In this document: piece after piece, positions 5,411 through 20,778 of the stretch
Layout: each line of letters starts with the position of its first letter
Position numbering within the stretch: the stretch's first letter is position 1
Assembly (NCBI GenBank): GCA_022451765.1
Contig: JAKUNY010000001.1
Coordinates: 1 to 26,739 of the forward strand
Direction: 5' to 3'
Origin: Candidatus Poseidoniaceae archaeon
GTDB lineage: Archaea > Thermoplasmatota > Poseidoniia > Poseidoniales > Poseidoniaceae
DNA length: 26,739 nt
Made by a program: the position numbers and the translations under genes
The notes under the pieces: generated by a model
What the model was told of the DNA's origin: nothing
What the model saw: only the letters and a program-made list of their open reading frames with translations
Database searches by the model: none

Positions 5411-6829
5411 ATGGCGGCAAAGAAAACCTCTGCAGAACAGGCACGAGAAAAAGCAGAAGAGGCCGCTTTGGGCTCAATGCTCGACGGTGCATTTGGTGCT
5501 ATGGAGGGCATTGAAACTCCACCATCAGACGCTGGACCATCAGGCCCGCCTCCCGGTCCAACTGGACCGCCACCAGAAAGTACAACGAAACCACCCTCTG
5601 GGCCCCCTGGTGGACCTCCTAGCGGACCTCCAACCGGACCCCCCAGTGGACCTCCAACTGGACCTCCAACTGGACCTCCTTGTGGGCCCCCTGGCGGACC
5701 GCCGGGGAGACCTCCATCAGGCCCTCCATCTGAACCTCCGCAAGAGGAAGAGGAACCTGCCCCAGAATCGGATTCCACAGAGGAGGTTCCTCCAATGGAT
5801 GTTGAACAACCCGAACCGCTTCCAGAGGAAGGAGAGACAGTGTCAGAAGAATCAGAAGCCTCAGGAGAAAAGGAGGAGATGGCTAGCAAAAAAGCACCCG
5901 AAATTGAGGGTGAACCGACTCCAGAGAAATCAGAAGCCGCGCCTGAGGAAACGGTAACTGAAGAATCACCTGCCGAGGAAGCAGAGGCACCTGAACCCAC
6001 AAAAGCCGAAGTGGCAGAAGATGGTACAATTTCTCCAGAAGCAGAAGTTGTAGCGGCTGAACCAAAAGAAACCACCAAAGAAGATCCCCCGATCGATGCG
6101 GAAAGAGAAATGGAAATCGCTCGCCTTACAGCTGAAATTGAACGTCTCCGTGGTAGCCTCGTCGGTGCTGCTGAAGTCATCGAAGAAATCGAAGAAACAC
6201 CGATGCCACCAGTTGTTCTCGACAACATCGTTGTTCCCCCGCACATCGTCGCGGATTTCGCTCGAATGGGGCGTCAACTCAGTAGAGAATCGTTGGTCAA
6301 AGGCACCATGGGCGCAATATCGATGCTCCACCCGGACGAACCCGGTCTGATGATCAGTACTCGTCACTCGACAATGCTATCTCGTTTGGACGAACGCGGT
6401 ATTGTAGGAGGACGTCTCGGTGGAAATCCACCGCGCGGCTCCATCGGCGATTGGAAAGTTCACGAGGTCCTCCTCGCATCCGTCGCTCTTGTTACGGGAG
6501 GGCCAGCAGCTTGCATTCACATGCAGGGCCCATACACGACGGCTGCAAGTTGTGAAAAGGACCTAATCCTCGTCCAACCGATCGATGTTCTCGGGAAAGA
6601 ACACATCGGTAAAGTTGTCATCGTAGATCCGGACGATGACGCACAAGAAGAATTCCTTCGCCAAGTTGCTGAAGCGCTACAGCAGGGTGGAATGCGCTGT
6701 GTTGTCGTTCGAGGACATGGAGCATACACTGTTGGAGCCACCCTCGATCAGGCGATGGCGAATGCAGCCATGCTTGAACACTCGATGCAAGTTCTACTAC
6801 TCGCTCGACAAGCGAACCTCAAGATCTAG
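5411..6829 (+). CDS. Class II aldolase/adducin-family domain protein with a long Pro/Gly-rich and acidic N-terminal region
   Basis: C-terminal ~190 aa: GTMGAISM, PRGSIGDWKVH, ACIHMQGPYTTA, VVVRGHGAYTVGATLDQA..LEHS (FucA-like). aa 1-230 are low complexity; a short coiled coil sits at about aa 229-252. Confidence 0.8.
   Translation: MAAKKTSAEQAREKAEEAALGSMLDGAFGAMEGIETPPSDAGPSGPPPGPTGPPPESTTKPPSGPPGGPPSGPPTGPPSGPPTGPPTGPPCGPPGGPPGRPPSGPPSEPPQEEEEPAPESDSTEEVPPMDVEQPEPLPEEGETVSEESEASGEKEEMASKKAPEIEGEPTPEKSEAAPEETVTEESPAEEAEAPEPTKAEVAEDGTISPEAEVVAAEPKETTKEDPPIDAEREMEIARLTAEIERLRGSLVGAAEVIEEIEETPMPPVVLDNIVVPPHIVADFARMGRQLSRESLVKGTMGAISMLHPDEPGLMISTRHSTMLSRLDERGIVGGRLGGNPPRGSIGDWKVHEVLLASVALVTGGPAACIHMQGPYTTAASCEKDLILVQPIDVLGKEHIGKVVIVDPDDDAQEEFLRQVAEALQQGGMRCVVVRGHGAYTVGATLDQAMANAAMLEHSMQVLLLARQANLKI
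5591..5740 (+). repeat. Coding tandem repeat: 12 PPxG-type tetrapeptides (12-bp period)
   Basis: PPSG PPGG PPSG PPTG PPSG PPTG PPTG PPCG PPGG PPGR PPSG PPSE PP; exact GGACCTCCAACT twice at 5648-5671. Confidence 0.9.
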
Positions 6830-7419
6830 GCATCTCGTGCTTGACGACAGACTTCGACGAAGTTTTCGAACATCTCTTTTCCAAATTCTGAATCGTTGAC
6901 CTCTGGATGGAATTGCAAACCAAACCGATCCCCTGCAATATTTTCCATACCTTGGATGCTGCAGGACGGGCTGCTTGCGGTAACAAAGAAACCATCCGGG
7001 ACGAGATGAACTTCGTCGTTGTGTGATTCCCAAACAGTTTGTTTTTGCGATGTCCCAGCGAAGATTTTACCACCGCCATCGTGAAGTTCAATGTCCATCG
7101 CTCCAAATTCAGGAATCGGCGACTCACGAGCGTCACCTCCGTAAAATCGAGCCATGAATTGATGTCCTGCGCAAATTCCGAGAATTGGAATATCAAGCTT
7201 GAGGAATTCAGCACAATTCCCCAATTCTCCTGACAGACCGATTCGAGCAGCACCTCCTGAAAGGATGAGTCCATCCAACGCTCGAAGTTGACTGACAGGG
7301 GTGTCGTTTGGGATGATTTGTGTATCGACTTTAAGATACTTCAACATCCTCCATTCACGATGAGTCCATTGCCCGCCGTTGTCAACAACGTCAATGACAA
7401 GAGGTGCATCTTCGCCCAT
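6826..7419 (-). CDS. guaA: GMP synthase glutamine amidotransferase subunit A
   Basis: VVDNGGQWTHR, LILSGG, PILGICAGHQ (catalytic Cys), WESHNDEV, GLQFHPEV (His-Glu). Stand-alone GATase as in archaeal split GMP synthase. ATG 7419 (MGEDAPL) preferred over the track start. Confidence 0.88.
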   Translation of the reverse strand: MGEDAPLVIDVVDNGGQWTHREWRMLKYLKVDTQIIPNDTPVSQLRALDGLILSGGAARIGLSGELGNCAEFLKLDIPILGICAGHQFMARFYGGDARESPIPEFGAMDIELHDGGGKIFAGTSQKQTVWESHNDEVHLVPDGFFVTASSPSCSIQGMENIAGDRFGLQFHPEVNDSEFGKEMFENFVEVCRQARDA

Positions 7420-7467
7420 GAATTCCCATGTTCCGAGAACATCCTTGAACATGCCGAATATCGCGCG

Positions 7468-7507: not shown

Positions 7508-8128
7508 ATGTCGGATAAGAAATTCACAGTTCACGTAGCCAGAGAAGCAGGTCACGAGCAAGAGCTCATGACCCGACAAGACATCGTCGATGCGGTGTCA
7601 ACAAACGAAAACAATTGGGTCTTTGTCGATTCACAAATGGTCAGTGTCGAAGAACTCGAAACCATCGAGTTAAACGATTCCACTGAAATTCGCATCAACC
7701 CCGGAATGGTCGGCGGAGCAGAAACATTCACTGTTCTTGTTGCAAGCGAGAAAGGTGACCAGGCCATGACGATGACCAAACAACAACTTGCAGGCGAATT
7801 AACAAGCAACCGAGGAAACTGGCTCTTTGTCGATGGCCAGATGGTTGATGCAGCCACCATAGAAAATACTGAACTCAATCAAGACAACGTCTTGCGCTTG
7901 GTGCCGTCCATCGTTGGCGGATCAGAAACCTTCACTGTTCAGATTACCGATGCGACAGGTCACTCGGTTTGCGAAATGACCAAGGAAGAAATTGCATCGA
8001 GTGCGAAAGAAGGCAACAACTGGGTATTCGTTGACGGTCAGATGGTCGCTTCAAGTGCTATTGCAGAAACAGATCTTGCACAAGCTGCCGAGATCCGTAT
8101 CACGCGCCCACTTGTTGGTGGTTTCTGA
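7508..8128 (+). CDS. Tandem triple ubiquitin-like (SAMP/ThiS/MoaD beta-grasp) precursor; each unit ends in VGG
   Basis: Units 7508-7717 (70 aa, ..INPGMVGG), 7718-7921 (68 aa, ..LVPSIVGG), 7922-8122 (67 aa, ..ITRPLVGG), then F-stop. Shared motif FTV-x6-G-x5-MT..NW[VL]FVD[SG]QMV..L..[IL]R..VGG. Start placed at 7508 because the track start overlaps guaA. Confidence 0.8.
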   Translation: MSDKKFTVHVAREAGHEQELMTRQDIVDAVSTNENNWVFVDSQMVSVEELETIELNDSTEIRINPGMVGGAETFTVLVASEKGDQAMTMTKQQLAGELTSNRGNWLFVDGQMVDAATIENTELNQDNVLRLVPSIVGGSETFTVQITDATGHSVCEMTKEEIASSAKEGNNWVFVDGQMVASSAIAETDLAQAAEIRITRPLVGGF

Positions 8129-8179
8129 TATCAGATTTTGACGGACAGGTTCAAAACCAATGGGTAGGTCGGTCAGGCT

Positions 8180-8341
8180 ATGTCGGAACTTGTAGACTAC
8201 AAGTGTGCGCTCTGCGGGACCCACGAAAGCTTTGACCGTGAGCGAAACGGGATTCACTGCAGCCACTGCGGTTGCAAAATCTTCATGAAGCTCCGCAGAA
8301 GCAGTGGAGACCGAAAGAAGAAGACGCTCAAAGCAGTTTGA
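8180..8341 (+). CDS. rpoP: DNA-directed RNA polymerase subunit P (Rpo12)
   Basis: Hand translation: MSELVDYKCALCGTHESFDRERNGIHCSHCGCKIFMKLRRSSGDRKKKTLKAV* (53 aa). YKCxxCG...IxCxxCGxKIxxKxR...KA is the Rpo12/RPB12 pattern. Below the ORF-track cut-off. Confidence 0.88.
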   Translation: MSELVDYKCALCGTHESFDRERNGIHCSHCGCKIFMKLRRSSGDRKKKTLKAV

Positions 8342-8375
8342 GCCCACGCAAATGGTCAAAGACCTATGCCGCTGA

Positions 8376-9509
8376 ATGATGCACATGGCGAGTTGGCTTG
8401 AGACCTACCCACCTCGCCGTTTTTCTGAACTGGCACTCGATGAGTCTATCATTGATACCATTGAACGCGTTGCGCTTCAAGCAAACCCTCCTCACCTTCT
8501 CATCTCCGGCCCACCGGGTTCTGGTAAGACGGCTACTTGGCATCTCATCGTTCGGCAAGTTCTCGGACCATCGTGGCGCTCAACGACCCACGTCCTTCAA
8601 GCAAAGGACCTAGCAAAAACTGCAGGTGCGATGGCAGCTTTTGAATCGTTTTTGCGTCCGGGCGGCAAAGACTCAAGCGATACACTAGCAAGCCGCACCT
8701 CACTTGACGCGTTCGATTCCACTTTCTCGCAGGTCTCTGCCGATGATGTCGCTCCTGCGGGACATGAATCTCAGCGTGGAAGTCAGAACGATGTTCACAT
8801 CTCTCGAATCATTGTCATTGAGGATGCAGACCACCTCGGACATAAACGGCAGCCTCTCCTCCGTCGCATGATGGAGGCAACAAGCCATACTTCGCGATTC
8901 ATATTCACTGCACAAACACCATCGCGAATGATCGATGCGCTTCGTAGCCGAACCCAACACATCCGGTTAACTGGCGTACCCCGGAAAAAAATTGAACGCA
9001 GGCTGACTCAGATTTGCAGTATGGAAGACATTGACCCAGTTCGCGGGATCCTTGGCGACATCGCGCATATTTCGGATGGCAACCTACGGAAAGCACTGTT
9101 CACAACGGAGGTACTCGCATTGAGAGAGCTACTAGGAGATCGAGAAAATCTCCATCGCCTGTTAACAATGATCTCAACAAATGAAGTCCAACGCATGATT
9201 GAGGCTGCTTTGCGAGGCCAGGTCGTTGAATGGCGATGGGAAAAAGATGGTTACAAGAACACACGAAAACTGAAAGGCGCACTGGGAATCTATGATGACA
9301 TAATTTCTCAGCAAAGTCTGGAGGCCGAGGACGTAATTGAGCAAGTGCACCAAGTGTTGACAGGTGGGCGACTTAATCTCCCAGAGAAACAACTCATCTC
9401 AGCCTTGGCAGCACTCTCTGATTGCGATGTTCGACTCCGCCGTTCCTCACAAGGGCGCATACAAGTTGAGAAGATGTTGCACGAATTCGCTTCAATTCAT
9501 CAACAGTAA
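8376..9509 (+). CDS. Replication factor C small-subunit-like AAA+ protein (divergent)
   Basis: WLETYPP (cf. WVEKYRP), Walker A GPPGSGKT, Walker B region IIVIEDADHL, LRRMME..RFIFTA..PSRMIDALRSR, DGNLRKAL, C-terminal clamp-loader helical domain. True start may be ATG 8385. Confidence 0.8.
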   Translation: MMHMASWLETYPPRRFSELALDESIIDTIERVALQANPPHLLISGPPGSGKTATWHLIVRQVLGPSWRSTTHVLQAKDLAKTAGAMAAFESFLRPGGKDSSDTLASRTSLDAFDSTFSQVSADDVAPAGHESQRGSQNDVHISRIIVIEDADHLGHKRQPLLRRMMEATSHTSRFIFTAQTPSRMIDALRSRTQHIRLTGVPRKKIERRLTQICSMEDIDPVRGILGDIAHISDGNLRKALFTTEVLALRELLGDRENLHRLLTMISTNEVQRMIEAALRGQVVEWRWEKDGYKNTRKLKGALGIYDDIISQQSLEAEDVIEQVHQVLTGGRLNLPEKQLISALAALSDCDVRLRRSSQGRIQVEKMLHEFASIHQQ

Positions 9510-15679: not shown

Positions 15680-15768
15680 TTGCCGCATTGCACCCCGTTT
15701 ACGAACTGACGGCAGAGGGTCGCGGTTAAGTAGTGGTGAACTCTGCTTCAATTCACACAGGTGATACC

Positions 15769-18700
15769 ATGCGTCAGACAACAAAATCGATTACACTCGT
15801 CAGCCTTTTCCTGCTCTCATTGTTCTCAGGAATGGTCATAGGAACAGAGCAAGCCGAAGCATCCCAAGTAGTAATTACAGAAGCTGTTCGCATAGTCGAC
15901 GGCGGGACCGCCTCTGATAGTCAAGCAGCAGTTGCTTCGGACAGCGAAGGCAACGTCCACATCGTTTGGTCTCGAAATTCGCAGCACCTGTATTACTCCA
16001 TGCTTTCACCCCGTGGAGAAACGCTGATTGACGCAACACAAATCACCAATCCAGGCCTCCACAAAGTATGGCATCCAGACATGATAATTGATGAGAATGA
16101 TCGGATTCATCTGGTTTGGTCTGATAAGTCAGGGCAACACAAAATCATGTACACTTCCATCAACCCATATCTTGCACCTCTCGATGGAATGGCTGCGGAG
16201 GACAGCGCAATATCAGTCATCGATGACACCATCATATCCATGCGCGCTCAAGACAGAGACTGGCCTTCAATAGCTGTTGACAGTCAAGGGAACCTCCACA
16301 TTGCATGGCAAGACTCTTATGACGAGTTGCAGCAGTTCTTCAATCAACCTCAAATCTATTACTCGATGATTCAGCCAGAATACAGCGGAGGCTCTGTCTT
16401 AACCCTCTTTGAGGACACACTCCTTACACCGATCATCGGACACAAAGGCCATCCAGACATCGTAATCGACTCCAATGACTTGGTTCAAATCGCTTGGGAT
16501 GATACACGTGGAGGCAAGGTCGAACTTGTTTTCCTTGTCGACACCTCCGGTTCGATGTATTCCGAATGGGCAGACGTTTGTACCGTAATTTACGGCGGTA
16601 ACTTCGCAGCAGGCGGATACTTCCAAGGACTCAAACCCATGCTTCAAGAAGGAAACATGACTGTCTATGAAACGATATACGGTCTCGGAAACACACTTCC
16701 CGGTGCCGCAAGTTCAGGTAACTGTGCTGGAAAAAATCAGAACGCAGGTCCACGCTCAACCGCTCTTGGAATCACCCCAGGGGATGATTCTGGAGGCATT
16801 CGAAAACTTCCAGGTACGGTCTACAATGGAAACACTTACTCCGGTTATTCAGGCGAAGACTGGGGACCAGGAACCAATTGGGCATGTCTCTCTTGGAAAG
16901 ATGCGCAAGGCAACGTCCCAGGAAACCCTCCAACACAGGATGACCACAAGTGGAATCCAAATGCAACCAAGATTGCGATCCCAATCTCTGACGAAGGCCC
17001 AAAAGACGGTGACCCATCACAGCAAGCAGATGACACCACCTCCATAGAAGAAGCGAAAGAAAACTGTGTGAATGCAGGCGTCGTTCCAGTCGGAATGTAT
17101 GGTCAAACCTACGGTGGTGCAACAAGCGTCCAATCCCACTTCAAGGACCTGGCGCAGTGTCCAAACGGGGTTCAGAGTACTGCTACCCGAAATTGCCCAG
17201 GTAACACAATTCGCTCAACCGATGCGGGCGGCCAAGTTTACGAATTCCCATCCGGTAGCGGTGGAGCAAGCCAAATGGCCCTTCTTGTCGAAGCGATGGT
17301 CTACATTTCTACCAACAACTCTCGAGAAATCTACATGTCTGTTCTTGACCCATACGGCAAGATGAACAACGACCCAAGCTGGATTCCTGGCGTATCGGGC
17401 ACTGTCGCTCAGAATGGTGCCTACATTGAGGATACAGGAAAAGGCTCTGAGGGACATCTTGTCGTCGTCAACGATACACGTGTAACCATCGACGATGCTT
17501 ACTCGTTCCACCCCTCAATCGGTGTCGACATGGAAGGAAACACCCACATCGCTTGGATGGATGGTCGCGACTACGGTTTCGAGAAGGACGTTAACTACGA
17601 AGTATACTACACGAAACTTCGGCTCCAAGGAGCGGGTGAATTCGACGGACGAGACGATGGATTGTCAACCTACGCAATCAAGAAAATTGACGATACACCA
17701 ATATCAAACGTCGAAACCAATGCAGGACTGCCGCAAAATGCCCCATGGAGTGGAAACTCTGTATTCCCGTCGTTGTTAACAGACGATCAGAACCAAGTTC
17801 ACATTGCATGGGTTGACTCTGGAAACATCTCAGCCGGAGAGGAGTTACTCTATGTTCGACTAAATCACACTTCGCTTGAAGGTGATGGGTTTACAGCACT
17901 CGACCCTTGGGAAACGGTTGCTATTACATCCTGGTCTTCCAATAAACTCGGGCCAAATTCTGGGTATAAACCGAGCATAGGTATGCCGCCGGCCTTCTCA
18001 AACGATCTTGGAAGCGGAGCCCACGTGGCCTGGTCGGATACAAACAAATGCAACGACGAAACCAACAACAATCGTTTCACCATATGCTATTCCCACGTTT
18101 TAACTGGGCAAGTCGATGTTGACTTCGACGCAGGAGAAACATTCTACCACGTCATCGAACCCGGTGAACAGACCATCTACAACCTTACCATGAACAATTC
18201 AACACCCGGTCCAAAAGACCTGGTTGCTGACTCCTATGGCCTCAACATTACGGGCGTTCCTTCAAACTGGACCGCAACCCTGTTCTTTGCCGATAACCAT
18301 ACAGCAATCTTCCCAGATACGGAAATCTTCCTCGAAGGTGGAGAATCAATACGGTTCTATCTCAGGGTACGTGCTCCTTCCATCTATCAGGCAAATGCAG
18401 ACGAACTAGCAGAAATACGCGTCGAAGCGAAGTCCTACAAGGACCCCGCGATTCGATCTGAAATCACAACACTCACACTCATGGACGTCGTTCACGGAAT
18501 TGCCCTTGACGCATCACATAGTGTTGCTGACGTCGAACAGGGCCAAACAGCGATTTTCTCGATTACCATAACGAATACAGGCAACGTGGCGGACACATTC
18601 CTCTTCTGGGATCCACAAACCCTTGAAGGACGTCAAGAGTGGCTCTTACCGTTCGCTTGGGACGTTAATTTCCCGCTTAGCGTTCAGCTTGATCCGAAGC

Positions 18701-20778
18701 AATCGGTAACCAAGAACCTCGAAATTAATGTTCCAACATCGGAAGATCCAGGCGCATTCGTTATTCTTCTCAAAGGCTGGTCAGCAGGAGAACCTGTCAA
18801 GTCTGTGGAAAAAGGAACGTATGACATCCTCGAACTCGGTGTGTTTGTATCGATTAGGTCATCAAACAACATTGTTTTCAACATTACAGATCAGATGGCG
18901 ATAGTCACACCTGCACCATACGCTCCGAACGCTCTCGATCCAAACTGCCACGTCTTCGAAATAGAGGTGGAGAAGTATTTCGATACGGGTGATCTCGTAT
19001 TTACTACGCCGGGAACAACTGAAAACGAGGACAACTGGACAACCGAAGTGATCTTCCCGAACGGACTTAATCTGAATCCAGATGGTGTCTCATATCCTTG
19101 GGTTCTGATGTCAGGCGACGACTACCGAATGCACGTGGTTAAGGTAAAGATATGTGCACCGGATGATGCACCAGCAGGACTTGGCAAAGCAGTCACAATC
19201 AAGGCAAATCTGAAGGGGTATCCAAAGATTTCAGCAGCAAAGATTCTGCAAGTTGATGTAGACCACGTTTACAGCTTGTCCACAAACGTGGCCCTCGTCG
19301 ATGATGAGCAACTCACGGTCAATCCAGGCGAAGCTATCATACTCCCAACGACCGTCAACAACAACGGTAACGGACCAGATCGGTTCGATTACACGCTTGC
19401 ACGTGTAACAGATTCCTCCGGTGTCGATGTCATTTGGGACATCACCATCCCACGCAATACGCTAGAAGAACTCGATTCGGGCTCTTCTCAGTCGTTTGAG
19501 GTTCTGATGAACGTTCCTGAGCAAGTCCCAGCAGGTGATTATACCATCGTGTTCCATACGAAGTCCGAACAAAAGGATGAAGACGCATCAGGACGAATGA
19601 CGCGGTTGCGAGATGTAACCACGCTCACAGTAACGGTGCGAGAATTCTATGATATGCAAATCTCGATGGACCCAACGGTTGATAACGATGTGAAGACATC
19701 TGCACCAGGCCGCGTTGTTCGTTTCATTGTCAACGTAACCAACGCAGGAAACGTTCCTGATGTACCAACATTGGATAACCATACGTCCACACGTTCTGGT
19801 ACGGACATTATGGTCGAAGAAATCCCTGATATGGGTACACTTGATGGATGGGACGTTTCATGGAAAATTATTCGACAGGTCGGACTTGATCTCGAGAGCG
19901 AGGAAGATTGCGTAGAGCAAAAATCGACTGATGCCTCGTTCCCAGAGGACAGCTGCGTTTACCTAACCGACATAGATTCATGGCGCCTCCCTGAGATGGC
20001 ACCATACGAAACCTACACGATGGTTGCAGTTGTTTCAGTGGACCCTGGGGCACAATTGCTCACTCGCAGTCTCGGCCTCAAGGTTGTGTCAATGATGGGC
20101 AATGCAGAACAAGGAGGCGATTACGACGATTCACCATCTTGGAACGGGGACTTCCTCGATACAAACGAGAAAATCGTTACCATCAATTTGCTCGCACCAA
20201 ACCTTGTAGCGAAATCTGCATCATCAGATATAACCGCAGCAGATGTCGGTGAATCGATTCCAATCCGTGTTGAAATTGCCAATACAGGCAATGTCCATGC
20301 CTCAGACATTGAAGTTATCCTTTGTGAGTATGACGCAGATGACATGCAGGCAGAGATTCGCAAGAACAACAACATGTGCGATGAGGACAGCATTGTCATG
20401 CGCCAGATCATTGGTGCACTCGACAAGCCAGATGATTCCCAAGACGAGCGTGTTATTGAGTTGTACATGCTTTATCCGGTTACTGCTGGTAACAAGAATG
20501 TCTATGTTGTAGTCGACCCCGGTAACACCATCGTTGAAGCAGATGAAAGTGATAACATCCGTCGGATTACACAAGAACTTGGGTCATCGAATCCGTTCTT
20601 CGATGTCGCTGGTGAAGTCGCAGGTAAGGTTGCATTACCGACCATGATTGTTTTACTCACTTTCTCACTCTTCGGTGTTCTCTACCTTGTTGGTCGTGGA
20701 CGACGCGCAGCAGTGAAGGATCGTATTGCAGAACAATCATCGCTGATGTCTGTACTGGGCGATGAAGACGATAACTGA
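15769..20778 (+). CDS. Large single-pass surface protein: signal peptide, beta-propeller with inserted VWA domain, Ig-like/CARDB repeats, C-terminal TM
   Basis: AGGTGAT SD at 15759-15765 supports ATG 15769. Signal peptide ..TEQAEA; seven D-x-x-G/D-x-x-H-I-x-W repeats; MIDAS LVDTSGS and ISDEGP; repeated NxGNxxD strands; VVDPGNTIVEADESDN (CARDB); TM VALPTMIVLLTFSLFGVLYLVG followed by RGRR. Confidence 0.85.
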   Translation: MRQTTKSITLVSLFLLSLFSGMVIGTEQAEASQVVITEAVRIVDGGTASDSQAAVASDSEGNVHIVWSRNSQHLYYSMLSPRGETLIDATQITNPGLHKVWHPDMIIDENDRIHLVWSDKSGQHKIMYTSINPYLAPLDGMAAEDSAISVIDDTIISMRAQDRDWPSIAVDSQGNLHIAWQDSYDELQQFFNQPQIYYSMIQPEYSGGSVLTLFEDTLLTPIIGHKGHPDIVIDSNDLVQIAWDDTRGGKVELVFLVDTSGSMYSEWADVCTVIYGGNFAAGGYFQGLKPMLQEGNMTVYETIYGLGNTLPGAASSGNCAGKNQNAGPRSTALGITPGDDSGGIRKLPGTVYNGNTYSGYSGEDWGPGTNWACLSWKDAQGNVPGNPPTQDDHKWNPNATKIAIPISDEGPKDGDPSQQADDTTSIEEAKENCVNAGVVPVGMYGQTYGGATSVQSHFKDLAQCPNGVQSTATRNCPGNTIRSTDAGGQVYEFPSGSGGASQMALLVEAMVYISTNNSREIYMSVLDPYGKMNNDPSWIPGVSGTVAQNGAYIEDTGKGSEGHLVVVNDTRVTIDDAYSFHPSIGVDMEGNTHIAWMDGRDYGFEKDVNYEVYYTKLRLQGAGEFDGRDDGLSTYAIKKIDDTPISNVETNAGLPQNAPWSGNSVFPSLLTDDQNQVHIAWVDSGNISAGEELLYVRLNHTSLEGDGFTALDPWETVAITSWSSNKLGPNSGYKPSIGMPPAFSNDLGSGAHVAWSDTNKCNDETNNNRFTICYSHVLTGQVDVDFDAGETFYHVIEPGEQTIYNLTMNNSTPGPKDLVADSYGLNITGVPSNWTATLFFADNHTAIFPDTEIFLEGGESIRFYLRVRAPSIYQANADELAEIRVEAKSYKDPAIRSEITTLTLMDVVHGIALDASHSVADVEQGQTAIFSITITNTGNVADTFLFWDPQTLEGRQEWLLPFAWDVNFPLSVQLDPKQSVTKNLEINVPTSEDPGAFVILLKGWSAGEPVKSVEKGTYDILELGVFVSIRSSNNIVFNITDQMAIVTPAPYAPNALDPNCHVFEIEVEKYFDTGDLVFTTPGTTENEDNWTTEVIFPNGLNLNPDGVSYPWVLMSGDDYRMHVVKVKICAPDDAPAGLGKAVTIKANLKGYPKISAAKILQVDVDHVYSLSTNVALVDDEQLTVNPGEAIILPTTVNNNGNGPDRFDYTLARVTDSSGVDVIWDITIPRNTLEELDSGSSQSFEVLMNVPEQVPAGDYTIVFHTKSEQKDEDASGRMTRLRDVTTLTVTVREFYDMQISMDPTVDNDVKTSAPGRVVRFIVNVTNAGNVPDVPTLDNHTSTRSGTDIMVEEIPDMGTLDGWDVSWKIIRQVGLDLESEEDCVEQKSTDASFPEDSCVYLTDIDSWRLPEMAPYETYTMVAVVSVDPGAQLLTRSLGLKVVSMMGNAEQGGDYDDSPSWNGDFLDTNEKIVTINLLAPNLVAKSASSDITAADVGESIPIRVEIANTGNVHASDIEVILCEYDADDMQAEIRKNNNMCDEDSIVMRQIIGALDKPDDSQDERVIELYMLYPVTAGNKNVYVVVDPGNTIVEADESDNIRRITQELGSSNPFFDVAGEVAGKVALPTMIVLLTFSLFGVLYLVGRGRRAAVKDRIAEQSSLMSVLGDEDDN

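What the first reader, a model, noticed from the sequence alone, without database searches (positions are those of the whole stretch)
7508..8128. Polyubiquitin-like precursor in an archaeon: three head-to-tail Ubl units, each ending Gly-Gly, with a one-residue cap
Seen: three 67-70 aa repeats with no linker, each ending VGG (nt 7717, 7921, 8122), and a single Phe between the last GG and the stop. Known: SAMP, ThiS, MoaD and ubiquitin are ~66-90 aa beta-grasp proteins needing a free C-terminal GG for E1 activation; VFVDGQMV and IR-x5-VGG match the ThiS/MoaD/SAMP2 'V.VNG..V' and 'I.I.P.V.GG' strands. Eukaryotic polyubiquitin genes are linker-less repeats with extra residue(s) after the last GG, so all units need protease release. 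Characterised archaeal SAMPs are monomeric genes, and the bacterial multi-Ubl proteins I recall carry the Gly-Gly only at the end of the chain. Inference: a protease-matured poly-SAMP precursor that cannot be activated until a JAMM/MPN+-type enzyme cuts it. I do not know of a description of this in MGII archaea but cannot check.
Basis: partly seen in the sequence, partly recalled or inferred. Interest (0 to 1): 0.92.

Follow-up and report, generated by a model that had tools for sequence, protein, structure and literature searches.

The report
Three-unit ubiquitin-like precursor gene, marine archaeon
A marine archaeon (Poseidoniaceae, Marine Group II) has a gene that strings three ubiquitin-like domains head to tail, each ending in Gly-Gly; it belongs to an undescribed modifier system (small E1 activating enzyme plus JAMM protease) shared with viruses of these archaea, and it looks like a prokaryotic counterpart of the eukaryotic polyubiquitin precursor, although cleavage has not been shown.

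Summary
Window 7508-8128 (+) encodes a 206-aa protein of three linker-less units (1-70, 71-138, 139-205). Each ends in VGG, followed by one Phe and the stop.

AlphaFold predicts three beta-grasp domains. Confidence is low only at the three VGG tails.

The units do not reach the ThiS/MoaD/SAMP or Multi_ubiq thresholds. They form a separate Ubl family with its own partners:
- The same genome carries a 212-aa mini-E1 and a 180-aa JAMM protease as an overlapping gene pair on another contig.
- In related archaea the Ubl is fused to this E1, or sits just upstream of an E1-JAMM fusion.
- In 151 Poseidoniales genomes, all 84 with the Ubl also have the E1 or the JAMM, and 59 have none of the three.

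At one syntenic site, upstream of rpoP-RFC, the gene has 1, 2 or 3 units depending on the lineage. Nearly every version carries a 1-6 residue cap, so cutting after GG is an obligatory step.

All six junction Gly codons show synonymous turnover without amino-acid change.

Sixty-six viral contigs that look like magroviruses carry the same module.

Cleavage into monomers is inferred, not shown. The rival is conjugation as one three-domain body.

This scan noted the same gene family before in two other genomes.

The parts
7508..8128 (+). Tri-Ubl gene (206 aa plus stop), protein P0001
   Evidence: ORF and translation. About 138 homologues, all from Poseidoniales or marine metagenomes. Model with mean pLDDT 79 and three beta-grasp domains.
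7508..7717 (+). Ubl unit 1 (aa 1-70), ends PGMVGG
   Evidence: Alignments A1-A3. Single-unit model has pLDDT 86 and pTM 0.73, with strand/helix order b-b-a-b-b-310-b. The top fold matches are overwhelmingly Ubl or beta-grasp domains. This is the most conserved unit across the genus.
7718..7921 (+). Ubl unit 2 (aa 71-138), ends PSIVGG
   Evidence: The only weak ThiS (E 0.0024) and SAMP1 (E 0.0075) profile hits fall in this unit. A divergent clade has AG here.
7922..8122 (+). Ubl unit 3 (aa 139-205), ends RPLVGG
   Evidence: The terminal GG is invariant in every full-length homologue.
7712..7717 (+). Gly69-Gly70 codons, junction between units 1 and 2 (predicted cleavage site after 7717)
   Evidence: Invariant amino acids with 3 synonymous codons each in 28 coding sequences. 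pLDDT is below 50 at residues 67-70.
7916..7921 (+). Gly137-Gly138 codons, junction between units 2 and 3 (predicted cleavage site after 7921)
   Evidence: Invariant within the genus, with 2 synonymous codons each. pLDDT is below 50 at residues 136-138.
8117..8125 (+). Gly204-Gly205 plus the one-residue cap Phe206
   Evidence: GG is invariant. The cap varies (F/L/I/Q/T, or 3-4 residues in some relatives). pLDDT is below 50 at residues 203-206.
8180..8341 (+). rpoP (RNA polymerase subunit P), conserved downstream neighbour
   Evidence: Pfam Zn_ribbon_RPAB4. In every Poseidoniaceae genus that has the Ubl gene at this chromosomal site (g1, g2, g3, g5, g8), whatever its unit number, it lies just upstream of rpoP-RFC; in g6 it lies elsewhere. 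RNA-library contigs span unit 3, rpoP and the start of RFC.
8376..9509 (+). Replication factor C small-subunit-like gene, conserved neighbour
   Evidence: Pfam AAA, RFC lid and Rep_fac_C. Synteny.
6826..7452 (-). GMP synthase-type glutamine amidotransferase, divergent upstream neighbour
   Evidence: Pfam GATase, E 1.3e-35. Conserved neighbour within the genus.

Best explanation
The gene encodes a linear precursor of three ubiquitin-like modifiers from a previously unnamed Ubl family.

Proposed mechanism:
1. The protein is made as three beta-grasp beads on a string.
2. A dedicated JAMM metalloprotease removes the one-residue cap, and most likely also cuts after each internal Gly-Gly. Its gene is in the same genome, contig C222 (L002:2106-2648).
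3. Each freed C-terminal Gly is adenylated by the dedicated mini-E1 (L002:1471-2109). That enzyme has an invariant Ser-Cys-Gln that could carry a thioester.
4. No E2 was found, so transfer would be E1-driven, as in archaeal SAMPylation. The targets are unknown.

Shown here: the architecture, the predicted fold, the conservation, and the genetic link between Ubl, E1 and JAMM.

Inferred: cleavage at the internal junctions, adenylation, and conjugation.

In this genus the three units are old, diverged paralogues kept in fixed order. They may therefore be three different modifiers rather than three doses of one.
For: Fold:
- The model has three beta-grasp domains and low confidence only at the VGG tails. 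Its pTM of 0.39 argues against a fixed inter-domain packing.
- The single-unit model matches ubiquilin and HOIL-1L Ubl domains, TtuB, linear di-ubiquitin, ISG15 and a bacterial Ubl, with Z 5.0-5.4 and Foldseek probability up to 0.99.

Link to the E1 and JAMM:
- The own-genome pair mini-E1 then JAMM overlaps by 4 nt.
- P0128 and P0162 are Ubl-Ubl-E1 and Ubl-E1 fusions whose E1 part is 44% identical to the own mini-E1 (E 1e-60). In P0128's contig (L008) the fusion is followed by a JAMM that is 45% identical and by the same ~80-aa ORF.
- In the other MGII family, the monomer sits directly upstream of an E1-JAMM fusion of 402-429 aa.

Co-occurrence: in 151 Poseidoniales genomes, 84 have the Ubl, 86 the E1 and 89 the JAMM. 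All 84 with the Ubl have the E1 or the JAMM, and 59 have none of the three. Patchy genera agree genome by genome.

Active sites are conserved:
- E1: GxGGIG, D45/D47, N53, Q57, K68, D108, R113 and S156-C157-Q158.
- JAMM: E60, H98, H100, S108 and D111.

Processing is obligatory in this family. MGII monomers, dimers and trimers all carry a 1-6 residue cap after GG, with one exception. Many non-MGII monomers end exactly at GG.

Junctions:
- 27 internal junctions were examined. 24 are GG and 3 are AG.
- AG also occurs at the terminal unit of the dimer of genome G056, so AG is functional there.
- The GG codons turn over synonymously without amino-acid change.

Unit number:
- The number is 1, 2 or 3 at one syntenic locus.
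- Arrays arose or were homogenised repeatedly, because units group by genome in several lineages. This is expected for a dosage array and not for a fixed multi-domain body.

Precedent: archaeal JAMM enzymes cut Ubl precursors and linear fusions exactly after GG (PMC6043591, read).

Expression: near-identical pieces occur in four seawater metatranscriptome runs from four studies.
Against: - No protein-level data exist, so cleavage at the internal junctions is pure inference.
- In this genus the three units are only 39-41% identical and keep positional orthology. That also fits a fixed three-domain protein.
- Multi-domain Ubls that are conjugated whole exist. ISG15 was the best Foldseek match of the full model, and bacterial Bil/Bub Ubl3 proteins act as rigid bodies (preprint 10.1101/2024.11.21.623966).
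- A divergent clade has AG at the unit 2 end.
- In this genome the Ubl gene is not next to the E1 and JAMM genes.
- About half of all columns are invariant within the genus, so invariant GG alone is weak evidence.
- Fold-match scores are modest (Z about 5).
- The RNA evidence consists of low-depth contigs, and DNA carry-over is not excluded.
Confidence: 0.6

Rival explanations
1. It is one three-domain modifier. Only the cap is removed, and the whole 205-aa protein is activated through its terminal GG and attached as a unit, like ISG15, FAT10 or bacterial Bil/Bub Ubl3 proteins. The internal GG serve only as flexible hinges inherited from the duplicated unit.
For: - The full model's best PDB matches are two-domain ISG15 (E 5e-5) and the OASL di-Ubl.
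- Bacterial Ubl3 proteins are described as intact dimers and filaments.
- In this genus the units are diverged and positionally orthologous.
- Unit 2 ends in AG in one clade.
Against: - Internal GG tails are as conserved as the terminal one. They are predicted to be disordered and not packed.
- pTM of 0.39 gives no fixed inter-domain arrangement.
- Unit number changes between 1, 2 and 3 at the same locus, and arrays arose repeatedly.
- The junctions have no linker beyond the tail, as in polyubiquitin.
- There is no match to Multi_ubiq.
- From general knowledge, not tested here: the N-terminal domains of ISG15 and FAT10 have lost the GG.
Confidence: 0.25
2. It is a sulfur carrier, not a protein modifier. 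The freed GG is adenylated and converted to a thiocarboxylate for a thiolation or biosynthetic reaction, as with ThiS, MoaD, TtuB, or the capped carrier QbsE matured by a JAMM enzyme.
For: - Among the closest structural matches is TtuB, with TM 0.61-0.65 and rmsd 2.8-2.9 by Foldseek and Z 5.3.
- There are weak ThiS and SAMP1 profile hits.
- No E2 was found (with silent controls).
- Capped sulfur carriers matured by JAB enzymes are known (Iyer et al. 2006, PMC1779556; QbsE from general knowledge).
Against: - The mini-E1 has no rhodanese domain.
- No sulfur-transfer, PP-loop or cofactor-synthesis gene lies beside the operon in any of the loci examined. Neighbours have no Pfam match, or only YbjN or GNAT.
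- The genome already has a canonical MoeB/UbaA-rhodanese E1 and an uncapped MoaD-like carrier.
- Arrays of 2-3 units suggest stoichiometric use rather than a catalytic carrier (inference).
- The module is common in viral contigs.
Confidence: 0.12
3. It is a non-activated structural or adaptor protein made of three beta-grasp repeats. The GG motifs and the link to the E1 and JAMM are coincidental.
For: - Beta-grasp domains serve many non-conjugating roles.
- The gene lies in a housekeeping neighbourhood (rpoP, RFC), not beside the E1.
Against: - Ubl-E1 fusions, Ubl-(E1-JAMM) operons, and the co-occurrence split of 84 with both, 0 with the Ubl only, 8 with E1/JAMM only and 59 with none.
- The family-wide C-terminal xGG with variable caps.
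Confidence: 0.03

Closest known systems
Eukaryotic polyubiquitin precursors (UBB, UBC, UBI4)
   Same: Both have head-to-tail beta-grasp units with no linker, each ending in Gly-Gly. Both have extra residue(s) after the last GG, so a peptidase is needed before activation. Unit number varies between lineages. In some Poseidoniales lineages the units are near-identical within a gene (P0122, G056, G080).
   Different: There is no significant sequence homology to ubiquitin; the phmmer hits are about 5 bits per domain. In this genus the units are 39-41% identical, not identical. The likely protease is a JAMM enzyme, not a USP/UCH enzyme. The E1 is a 212-aa single-domain enzyme. No E2 or E3 was found. 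Cleavage has not been shown.
Caldiarchaeum subterraneum Ub precursor with CsRpn11, and the archaeal SAMP/JAMM systems (HvJAMM1, CsJAMM)
   Same: These are archaeal Ubls made with a C-terminal extension that a JAMM/MPN+ protease removes exactly after GG. The same proteases cut linear fusions (PMC6043591). Activation uses a ThiF-type E1. SAMPylation needs no E2.
   Different: Those Ubls are single-unit genes. This family is a separate sequence family that does not reach the ThiS or SAMP1 cut-offs. It has its own mini-E1, which lacks the rhodanese and C-terminal domains of UbaA/MoeB. The genome also holds a canonical MoeB-rhodanese E1 and a MoaD-like protein.
Bacterial polyUbl proteins (6e operons of Iyer, Burroughs and Aravind 2006; Bub/Bil Ubl2 and Ubl3; Pfam Multi_ubiq)
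   Same: They are prokaryotic proteins with two or three tandem beta-grasp Ubl domains, genetically linked to E1-like and JAB enzymes (PMC1779556; preprint 10.1101/2024.11.21.623966).
   Different: There is no Multi_ubiq match. No E2-like or DUF6527 partner was found. The domain order is E1 then JAB, not JAB-E1. Bacterial Ubl3 proteins are reported as rigid dimers and Ca-dependent filaments, not as cleaved arrays. Here the tails are predicted to be flexible, and GG (rarely AG) is kept at every junction. Whether the bacterial proteins keep internal GG was not tested here.
Minimal ThiF-type E1 enzymes of mobile elements (PRTRC-system ThiF, TIGR03736; E1 part of CBASS Cap2)
   Same: The mini-E1's best NCBIfam hit is PRTRC_ThiF (E 1e-13), and its best PADLOC hits are the E1 part of the E1-E2 Cap2 models. 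Like those enzymes, it occurs on viral contigs.
   Different: The scores are far below the cut-offs (51 bits against 144.75). Only the Rossmann part aligns. No ParB or other PRTRC genes and no CD-NTase lie nearby.

Membership tests
ThiS/MoaD/SAMP (Pfam PF02597, NCBIfam SAMP1 NF041918) | Profile match above the curated cut-off | tested here: not met
   ThiS scores 18.8 bits against a cut-off of 22.5, and only for residues 95-138. SAMP1 scores 16.8 bits against 60. The single units give no hit. The unit profile finds no ThiS, MoaD or Ub chain in the PDB.
ThiS/MoaD/SAMP (Pfam PF02597, NCBIfam SAMP1 NF041918) | Beta-grasp fold with a flexible C-terminal Gly-Gly | tested here: met
   Predicted only: models. 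Matches to TtuB, MoaD, ThiS, SAMP1 and Urm1 with Z 4.3-5.3.
ThiS/MoaD/SAMP (Pfam PF02597, NCBIfam SAMP1 NF041918) | Activated by a MoeB/UbaA-type E1 | not testable with these tools
   The genome has such an E1 (L001, with ThiF and rhodanese domains). However, the genetic links point to a different, 212-aa E1.
Polyubiquitin-type precursor (architecture class) | Linker-less head-to-tail Ubl units, each ending in Gly-Gly | tested here: met
   Of 57 units from 33 proteins, 52 end in GG, 4 in AG and 1 in FG.
Polyubiquitin-type precursor (architecture class) | Extra residue(s) after the last Gly-Gly | tested here: met
   Phe206 in this gene.
Polyubiquitin-type precursor (architecture class) | Units kept identical by concerted evolution | tested here: not met
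   The units are 39-41% identical and group by position within this genus. Units do group by genome in other lineages, such as P0122, G056 and G080.
Polyubiquitin-type precursor (architecture class) | Proteolytic release of monomers | not testable with these tools
   Indirect support only: the obligatory cap, a conserved JAMM enzyme and flexible tails.
Polyubiquitin-type precursor (architecture class) | Sequence homology to ubiquitin | tested here: inconclusive
   The phmmer E of 6e-15 against nine-unit polyubiquitin is a sum of roughly 5-bit domain hits (i-Evalue about 100 each) that span a unit junction. The unit profile gives no ubiquitin hit.
Bacterial polyUbl (Pfam Multi_ubiq PF14452; Bub/Bil Ubl3) | Profile match | tested here: not met
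   No Multi_ubiq hit for P0001, even at E up to 10. None was found in the genome either (but the control genomes were also silent).
Bacterial polyUbl (Pfam Multi_ubiq PF14452; Bub/Bil Ubl3) | Operon with an E2-like protein and a JAB-E1 or E2-E1 fusion | tested here: not met
   No UQ_con or Prok-E2_B hit in the genome (the controls were silent, so this is weak). The partners here are E1 then JAB, or an E1-JAB fusion.
Ubl + E1 + JAB triad (prokaryotic Ub-like systems, Iyer et al. 2006) | E1 with intact adenylation motifs | tested here: met
   Pfam ThiF, E 2.9e-15. GxGGIG, D45, D47, N53, Q57, K68, D108 and R113 are conserved in 24 of 24 host and viral sequences.
Ubl + E1 + JAB triad (prokaryotic Ub-like systems, Iyer et al. 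2006) | JAB/JAMM with E...HxHx7Sx2D | tested here: met
   E60, H98, H100, S108 and D111 are invariant in 23 sequences. No Pfam or NCBIfam model reaches significance for this JAMM, so the assignment rests on the motif and on context.
Ubl + E1 + JAB triad (prokaryotic Ub-like systems, Iyer et al. 2006) | Conserved neighbourhood or fusion of the three parts | tested here: met
   Ubl-Ubl-E1 fusions, E1-JAB fusions and Ubl-then-E1-JAB operons occur in relatives. The co-occurrence split is 84 both, 0 Ubl only, 8 E1/JAB only and 59 none. In this genome the Ubl gene lies on a different contig from the E1-JAB pair.

The most novel reading that the evidence does not exclude
This may be the first prokaryotic polyubiquitin-type precursor. 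In it, a JAMM protease releases three different ubiquitin-like modifiers from one translation product, and a minimal E1 then activates them without an E2. The system evolved independently of eukaryotic polyubiquitin. It is shared between the most abundant planktonic archaea and their viruses, which suggests a role in virus-host conflict or in control of the information-processing machinery next to which it is encoded.
Probability: 0.5. Interest if true: 0.85.

Novelty: new variant of a known kind. Interest (0 to 1): 0.74.

Why it matters
- Polyubiquitin genes are regarded as a eukaryotic device for delivering large amounts of modifier. An independent archaeal version would show that the 'array plus cap plus peptidase' logic evolves readily once a Ubl, E1 and JAMM triad exists.
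- It would offer a minimal, E2-free system for studying how precursor processing and activation are coupled.
[quoted passage not shown] A dedicated modifier system that they share with magrovirus-like viruses, and that none of the paper searches run here found described, is a concrete lead into their cell biology and virus-host interactions.
- The natural series of 1, 2 and 3 units at one syntenic locus is a ready-made comparative experiment.

Tried and rejected
- Tandem Repeats Finder found no DNA-level repeat, because the units are too diverged.
- The unit profile against PDB sequences gave only a chance spectrin hit.
- Pfam, NCBIfam, PHROGs and PADLOC gave no family for the Ubl or the JAMM. 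The E1 hits only generic ThiF, PRTRC_ThiF or Cap2 E1 parts, all below cut-off.
- I considered whether the 522-aa ORF at window 9661-11229 matches the 523-aa ORF beside the Ubl-E1 fusion in L008. It does not.
- E2 searches (PF00179, PF14461) and the Multi_ubiq search in the own genome were empty. The control genomes were also silent, so these results are uninformative.
- GenBank phage records hold no relative of the viral contig or of its E1, so the viruses could not be named. 'Magrovirus-like' rests on a GroEL-type chaperonin, a TFB-like protein and contig sizes.
- The Atlas look-up of the conserved 391-403-aa viral neighbour gave only sub-threshold GNAT-like leads. It has no homologue in the own genome.
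- The genome-contig scan used one narrow peptide pattern, so it returned almost only same-genus relatives.
- Laying the RNA runs gave only low-depth assembled contigs. It gave no read-level strand or end information.
- The TTG start at 7379 was rejected.
Full report
OBSERVATION

The ORF that starts at ATG 7508 and stops at 8126-8128 encodes 206 aa (P0001). It splits into three units with no linker: residues 1-70, 71-138 and 139-205. The units end in MVGG, IVGG and LVGG, at nt 7717, 7921 and 8122, and one Phe codon precedes the stop. The units are 39-41% identical to one another. Tandem Repeats Finder sees no repeat at the DNA level, so the triplication is old. The alternative TTG start at 7379 adds a stretch that homologues lack and that runs into the start of the opposite-strand amidotransferase gene.

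The window is ordinary archaeal chromosome. It carries topoisomerase VI A and B, RFC, RpoP, a TYW2/Trm5-type methyltransferase and a GMP-synthase amidotransferase. Named relatives are Candidatus Poseidoniaceae / Poseidoniales MAGs.

FOLD

With a 24-sequence alignment, AlphaFold2 gives mean pLDDT 79. Each unit runs b-b-a-b-b-(3-10)-b, which is the beta-grasp order. pLDDT falls below 50 only at residues 67-70, 136-138 and 203-206, the three VGG tails. pTM is 0.39, so no fixed arrangement of the three domains is predicted.

A single unit modelled alone reaches pLDDT 86 and pTM 0.73. Its best PDB matches are overwhelmingly ubiquitin-like or other beta-grasp domains: ubiquilin-type and HOIL-1L Ubl domains, TtuB, ubiquitin in linear di-ubiquitin, ISG15, a bacterial Ubl, MoaD, ThiS, SAMP1 and Urm1. 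Foldseek probability reaches 0.99 and VIA Z is 4.3-5.4. Swiss-Prot models give RnfH, ycf40, midnolin and MoaD. The Z values are modest, as expected for 70 residues, and I read them as 'beta-grasp Ubl' and nothing finer. The full model matches two-domain ISG15 best.

NOT A MEMBER OF THE KNOWN PROFILES

- Pfam ThiS scores 18.8 bits (cut-off 22.5) and NCBIfam SAMP1 scores 16.8 bits (cut-off 60). Both hits cover only the second half of unit 2, and the isolated units score nothing.
- Pfam Multi_ubiq, the bacterial polyUbl family, gives no hit.
- A phmmer hit to nine-unit polyubiquitin (E 6e-15) is a sum of roughly 5-bit domain hits across a unit junction. I do not count it as homology.
- A profile of the unit finds nothing relevant among PDB sequences.

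THE FAMILY

A profile of the unit searched against 1.84 billion representative proteins finds 157 relatives. Reading 57 of them shows these types:
- many monomers of 66-72 aa that end exactly at (L/I/V)VGG, or at GG plus 1-3 residues;
- dimers;
- another trimer with near-identical units;
- fusions in which one or two units precede a ThiF-type Rossmann domain (P0128, P0162);
- fusions in which units precede unknown C-terminal domains.

THE PARTNERS

The same genome (82% complete, 282 contigs) has a canonical MoeB/UbaA-type E1 with a rhodanese domain, an uncapped MoaD-like protein ending in VSGG, and a 246-aa JAMM candidate.

Contig C222 is more telling. It carries a 212-aa ThiF-family protein (L002:1471-2109) followed, with a 4-nt overlap, by a 180-aa protein with the motif HTHx7SxxD (L002:2106-2648). 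An 80-aa ORF comes next.

The E1 part of the Ubl-Ubl-E1 fusion P0128 is 44% identical to this mini-E1 (E 1e-60). In its contig it is followed by a JAMM that is 45% identical and by a homologous 81-aa ORF. This Rosetta-stone link ties the Ubl family to this particular E1/JAMM pair.

Across 24 host and viral E1s, the nucleotide-binding and catalytic motifs and a Ser-Cys-Gln triplet are invariant. Across 23 JAMMs, the Glu, both His, the Ser and the Asp are invariant.

DISTRIBUTION

I searched the same 151 Poseidoniales genomes with the unit profile, the mini-E1 and the JAMM.

| Feature | Genomes (of 151) |
|---|---|
| Ubl unit | 84 |
| Mini-E1 | 86 |
| JAMM | 89 |
| All three | 79 |
| Ubl together with E1 or JAMM | 84 |
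| E1 or JAMM, no Ubl hit | 8 (all at most 93% complete) |
| None of the three | 59 |

The agreement holds genome by genome in patchy genera (1/10, 4/12, 3/7, 1/9 and 2/7), and one genus has none in 10 genomes. Relatives are not independent, so I give the counts rather than rely on the Fisher P value.

ARCHITECTURES

- In the other MGII family, the Ubl is a monomer ending PGLVGG plus a 1-2 residue cap. It lies directly upstream of an E1-JAMM fusion (402-429 aa) or of separate E1 and JAMM genes.
- One Poseidoniaceae genus has a Ubl-Ubl-E1 fusion followed by the JAMM.
- Other Poseidoniaceae genera have monomers, dimers or trimers.
- The window's genus always has the trimer (10 of 10 genomes).
- In every Poseidoniaceae genus that has the gene at this chromosomal site (g1, g2, g3, g5, g8), it sits just upstream of rpoP-RFC, whatever its unit number. 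Unit number has therefore changed in place. The exception is genus g6, whose Ubl copies (the Ubl-Ubl-E1 fusion and a separate monomer) lie elsewhere.

JUNCTIONS

Of 57 units from 33 proteins, 52 end in GG, 4 in AG and 1 in FG. AG also occurs at the terminal unit of one dimer, so AG appears to be a working C-terminus in this family. The AG at unit 2 of the divergent 208-aa clade therefore does not by itself argue against cleavage.

The cap varies freely (F, L, I, V, Q, E, N, C and longer forms). Removing residues after GG is thus an obligatory, ancestral step, even for monomers.

Within the window's genus there are 28 distinct coding sequences at 63-100% protein identity. All six Gly of the three GG are invariant while using 2-4 synonymous codons each. 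The residue after each GG varies. About half of all columns are invariant in this set, so this result is supportive but not decisive.

HISTORY OF THE UNITS

In a tree of 57 units (68 columns, so many forks are unresolved), the units of the window's genus fall into three well-supported clades by position. In several other lineages the units group by genome. Arrays were therefore built or homogenised more than once. In this genus the triplication is old and the three positions are kept distinct. That pattern fits three specialised modifiers, but equally a fixed three-domain protein.

VIRUSES

A scan of IMG/VR found 66 viral contigs, many of 80-100 kb, with a monomeric unit ending PAIVGG plus 0-2 residues. 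Within 6 kb downstream, 48 also carry the mini-E1 and 25 the JAMM; the remaining loci are cut off by the flank limit.

One such contig also encodes a TFB-like Zn-ribbon/HTH protein and a GroEL-type chaperonin. Both are traits reported for magroviruses (PMC5434244). That paper and two later ones on Poseidoniales viruses do not mention ThiF, JAB or ubiquitin. I could not name the viruses from GenBank records.

EXPRESSION

Assembled contigs from four seawater metatranscriptome runs, from four studies, contain pieces at least 99% identical to the gene. Some span unit 3, rpoP and the start of RFC. Depth is low, and the tool warns that DNA can be present in RNA libraries and that a contig is not a transcript. 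This shows presence in RNA libraries and no more.

INTERPRETATION

Shown:
- a three-unit Ubl gene with conserved GG tails and a cap;
- predicted beta-grasp beads on a string;
- a dedicated, apparently active E1 and JAMM linked to this Ubl family by fusion, operon position and phyletic pattern;
- variable unit number at one locus;
- presence of the module in viruses.

Inferred: the JAMM removes the cap and also cuts the internal junctions, the E1 adenylates the freed Gly, and the units are conjugated to targets without an E2.

The inference of internal cleavage rests on four points:
1. The protease must already recognise 'Ubl body plus xVGG followed by any residue'.
2. The same determinant is kept at each junction.
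3. The tails are predicted to be exposed.
4. Archaeal JAMM enzymes are known to cut Ubl precursors and linear fusions after GG (PMC6043591).

The main rival is conjugation of the whole protein, as for ISG15 or the bacterial Ubl3 proteins, which act as intact dimers and filaments. A sulfur-carrier role is possible but has no contextual support.

COMPARISON AND NOVELTY

Ubl-E1-JAB triads and bacterial polyUbl proteins were predicted in 2006 (PMC1779556). Capped archaeal Ubl precursors cut by JAMM enzymes are established. What is new here:
- a distinct Ubl family with a minimal E1;
- linear arrays that keep a GG (rarely AG) tail at every junction;
- occurrence in Poseidoniales and their viruses.

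The seven paper searches run here found no description of this, but the library is incomplete. This scan had already noted the same gene family in two other genomes with a similar reading. I reached the same conclusions from my own tests and added the order-wide co-occurrence table, the syntenic copy-number series, the codon analysis, the unit tree and the viral survey.

I class the finding as a new variant of a known kind. My confidence that the protein belongs to an E1/JAMM-dependent Ubl system is about 0.9. My confidence that it is cut into monomers is about 0.6.

Noticed in passing
L044:1654-2301 (genome G018, same genus): A 215-aa gene begins directly after the tri-Ubl gene. It opens with a fourth Ubl unit ending APLVGG and continues into a ~140-aa C-terminal domain with no family match (P0149 is similar). 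This is a Ubl-X fusion that would also need cutting after GG.
   Followed up: partly
L056-L121 (IMG/VR viral contigs), e.g. L079:1534-5621: Sixty-six viral contigs carry the monomeric Ubl. In 63 of them it is followed by a conserved ~400-aa protein of unknown function. In 61 there is also a ~290-aa TFB-like Zn-ribbon/HTH protein. The mini-E1 and the JAMM come after these. The ~400-aa protein has no homologue in the window's genome and is a candidate partner or target.
   Followed up: partly
L002:2645-2887 (own genome, contig C222): An 80-aa acidic ORF, which looks helical from its sequence, overlaps the end of the JAMM gene. It is conserved (32% identity) at the same position after the JAMM in the Ubl-Ubl-E1 fusion locus L008. 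It has no family match.
   Followed up: partly
L001:1051-2367(-), L004:1498-1746(-), L003:1183-1923(+) (own genome): The genome also has a canonical MoeB/UbaA-type E1 with a rhodanese domain, an uncapped 82-aa MoaD-like protein ending in VSGG, and a third JAMM-motif protein of 246 aa. The cell therefore appears to run two separate Ubl systems.
   Followed up: partly
P0130, P0200, P0141; P0175, P0181; P0163-P0165, P0160, P0187: Other family members fuse one or two Ubl units, each ending in LVGG, to unrelated C-terminal domains of 130-300 aa with no Pfam match. Some of these proteins end in a Cys. Their source organisms are unknown.
   Followed up: no
L026:3774-3983(-) (genome G103): This genome has two Ubl/E1/JAMM sets. 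In the second set the Ubl ends in IVFG with no cap, and a 74-aa ORF lies between the Ubl and the JAMM.
   Followed up: no
window 5411-6829 (+): A class II aldolase/adducin-domain protein carries a ~280-aa N-terminal extension rich in Pro, Gly, Ser and Glu, with repeated PPSGPPTGPP-like motifs.
   Followed up: no
window 15733-20778 (+): A 1681-aa ORF has only weak CARDB, DUF7507 and NEW3 hits near its C-terminus. It is probably a large surface protein.
   Followed up: no
window 7974-8489 and 7629-8225: Metatranscriptome contigs run from Ubl unit 3 across the 51-nt gap into rpoP and on into the RFC gene. This is compatible with co-transcription of the Ubl gene with these information-processing genes.
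   Followed up: partly
L129, L135, L152 (genome contigs): Contigs carrying this archaeal gene are filed under bacterial MAG names (Salipiger, Rhodobiaceae, Altibacter). This is most likely mis-binning.
   Followed up: no
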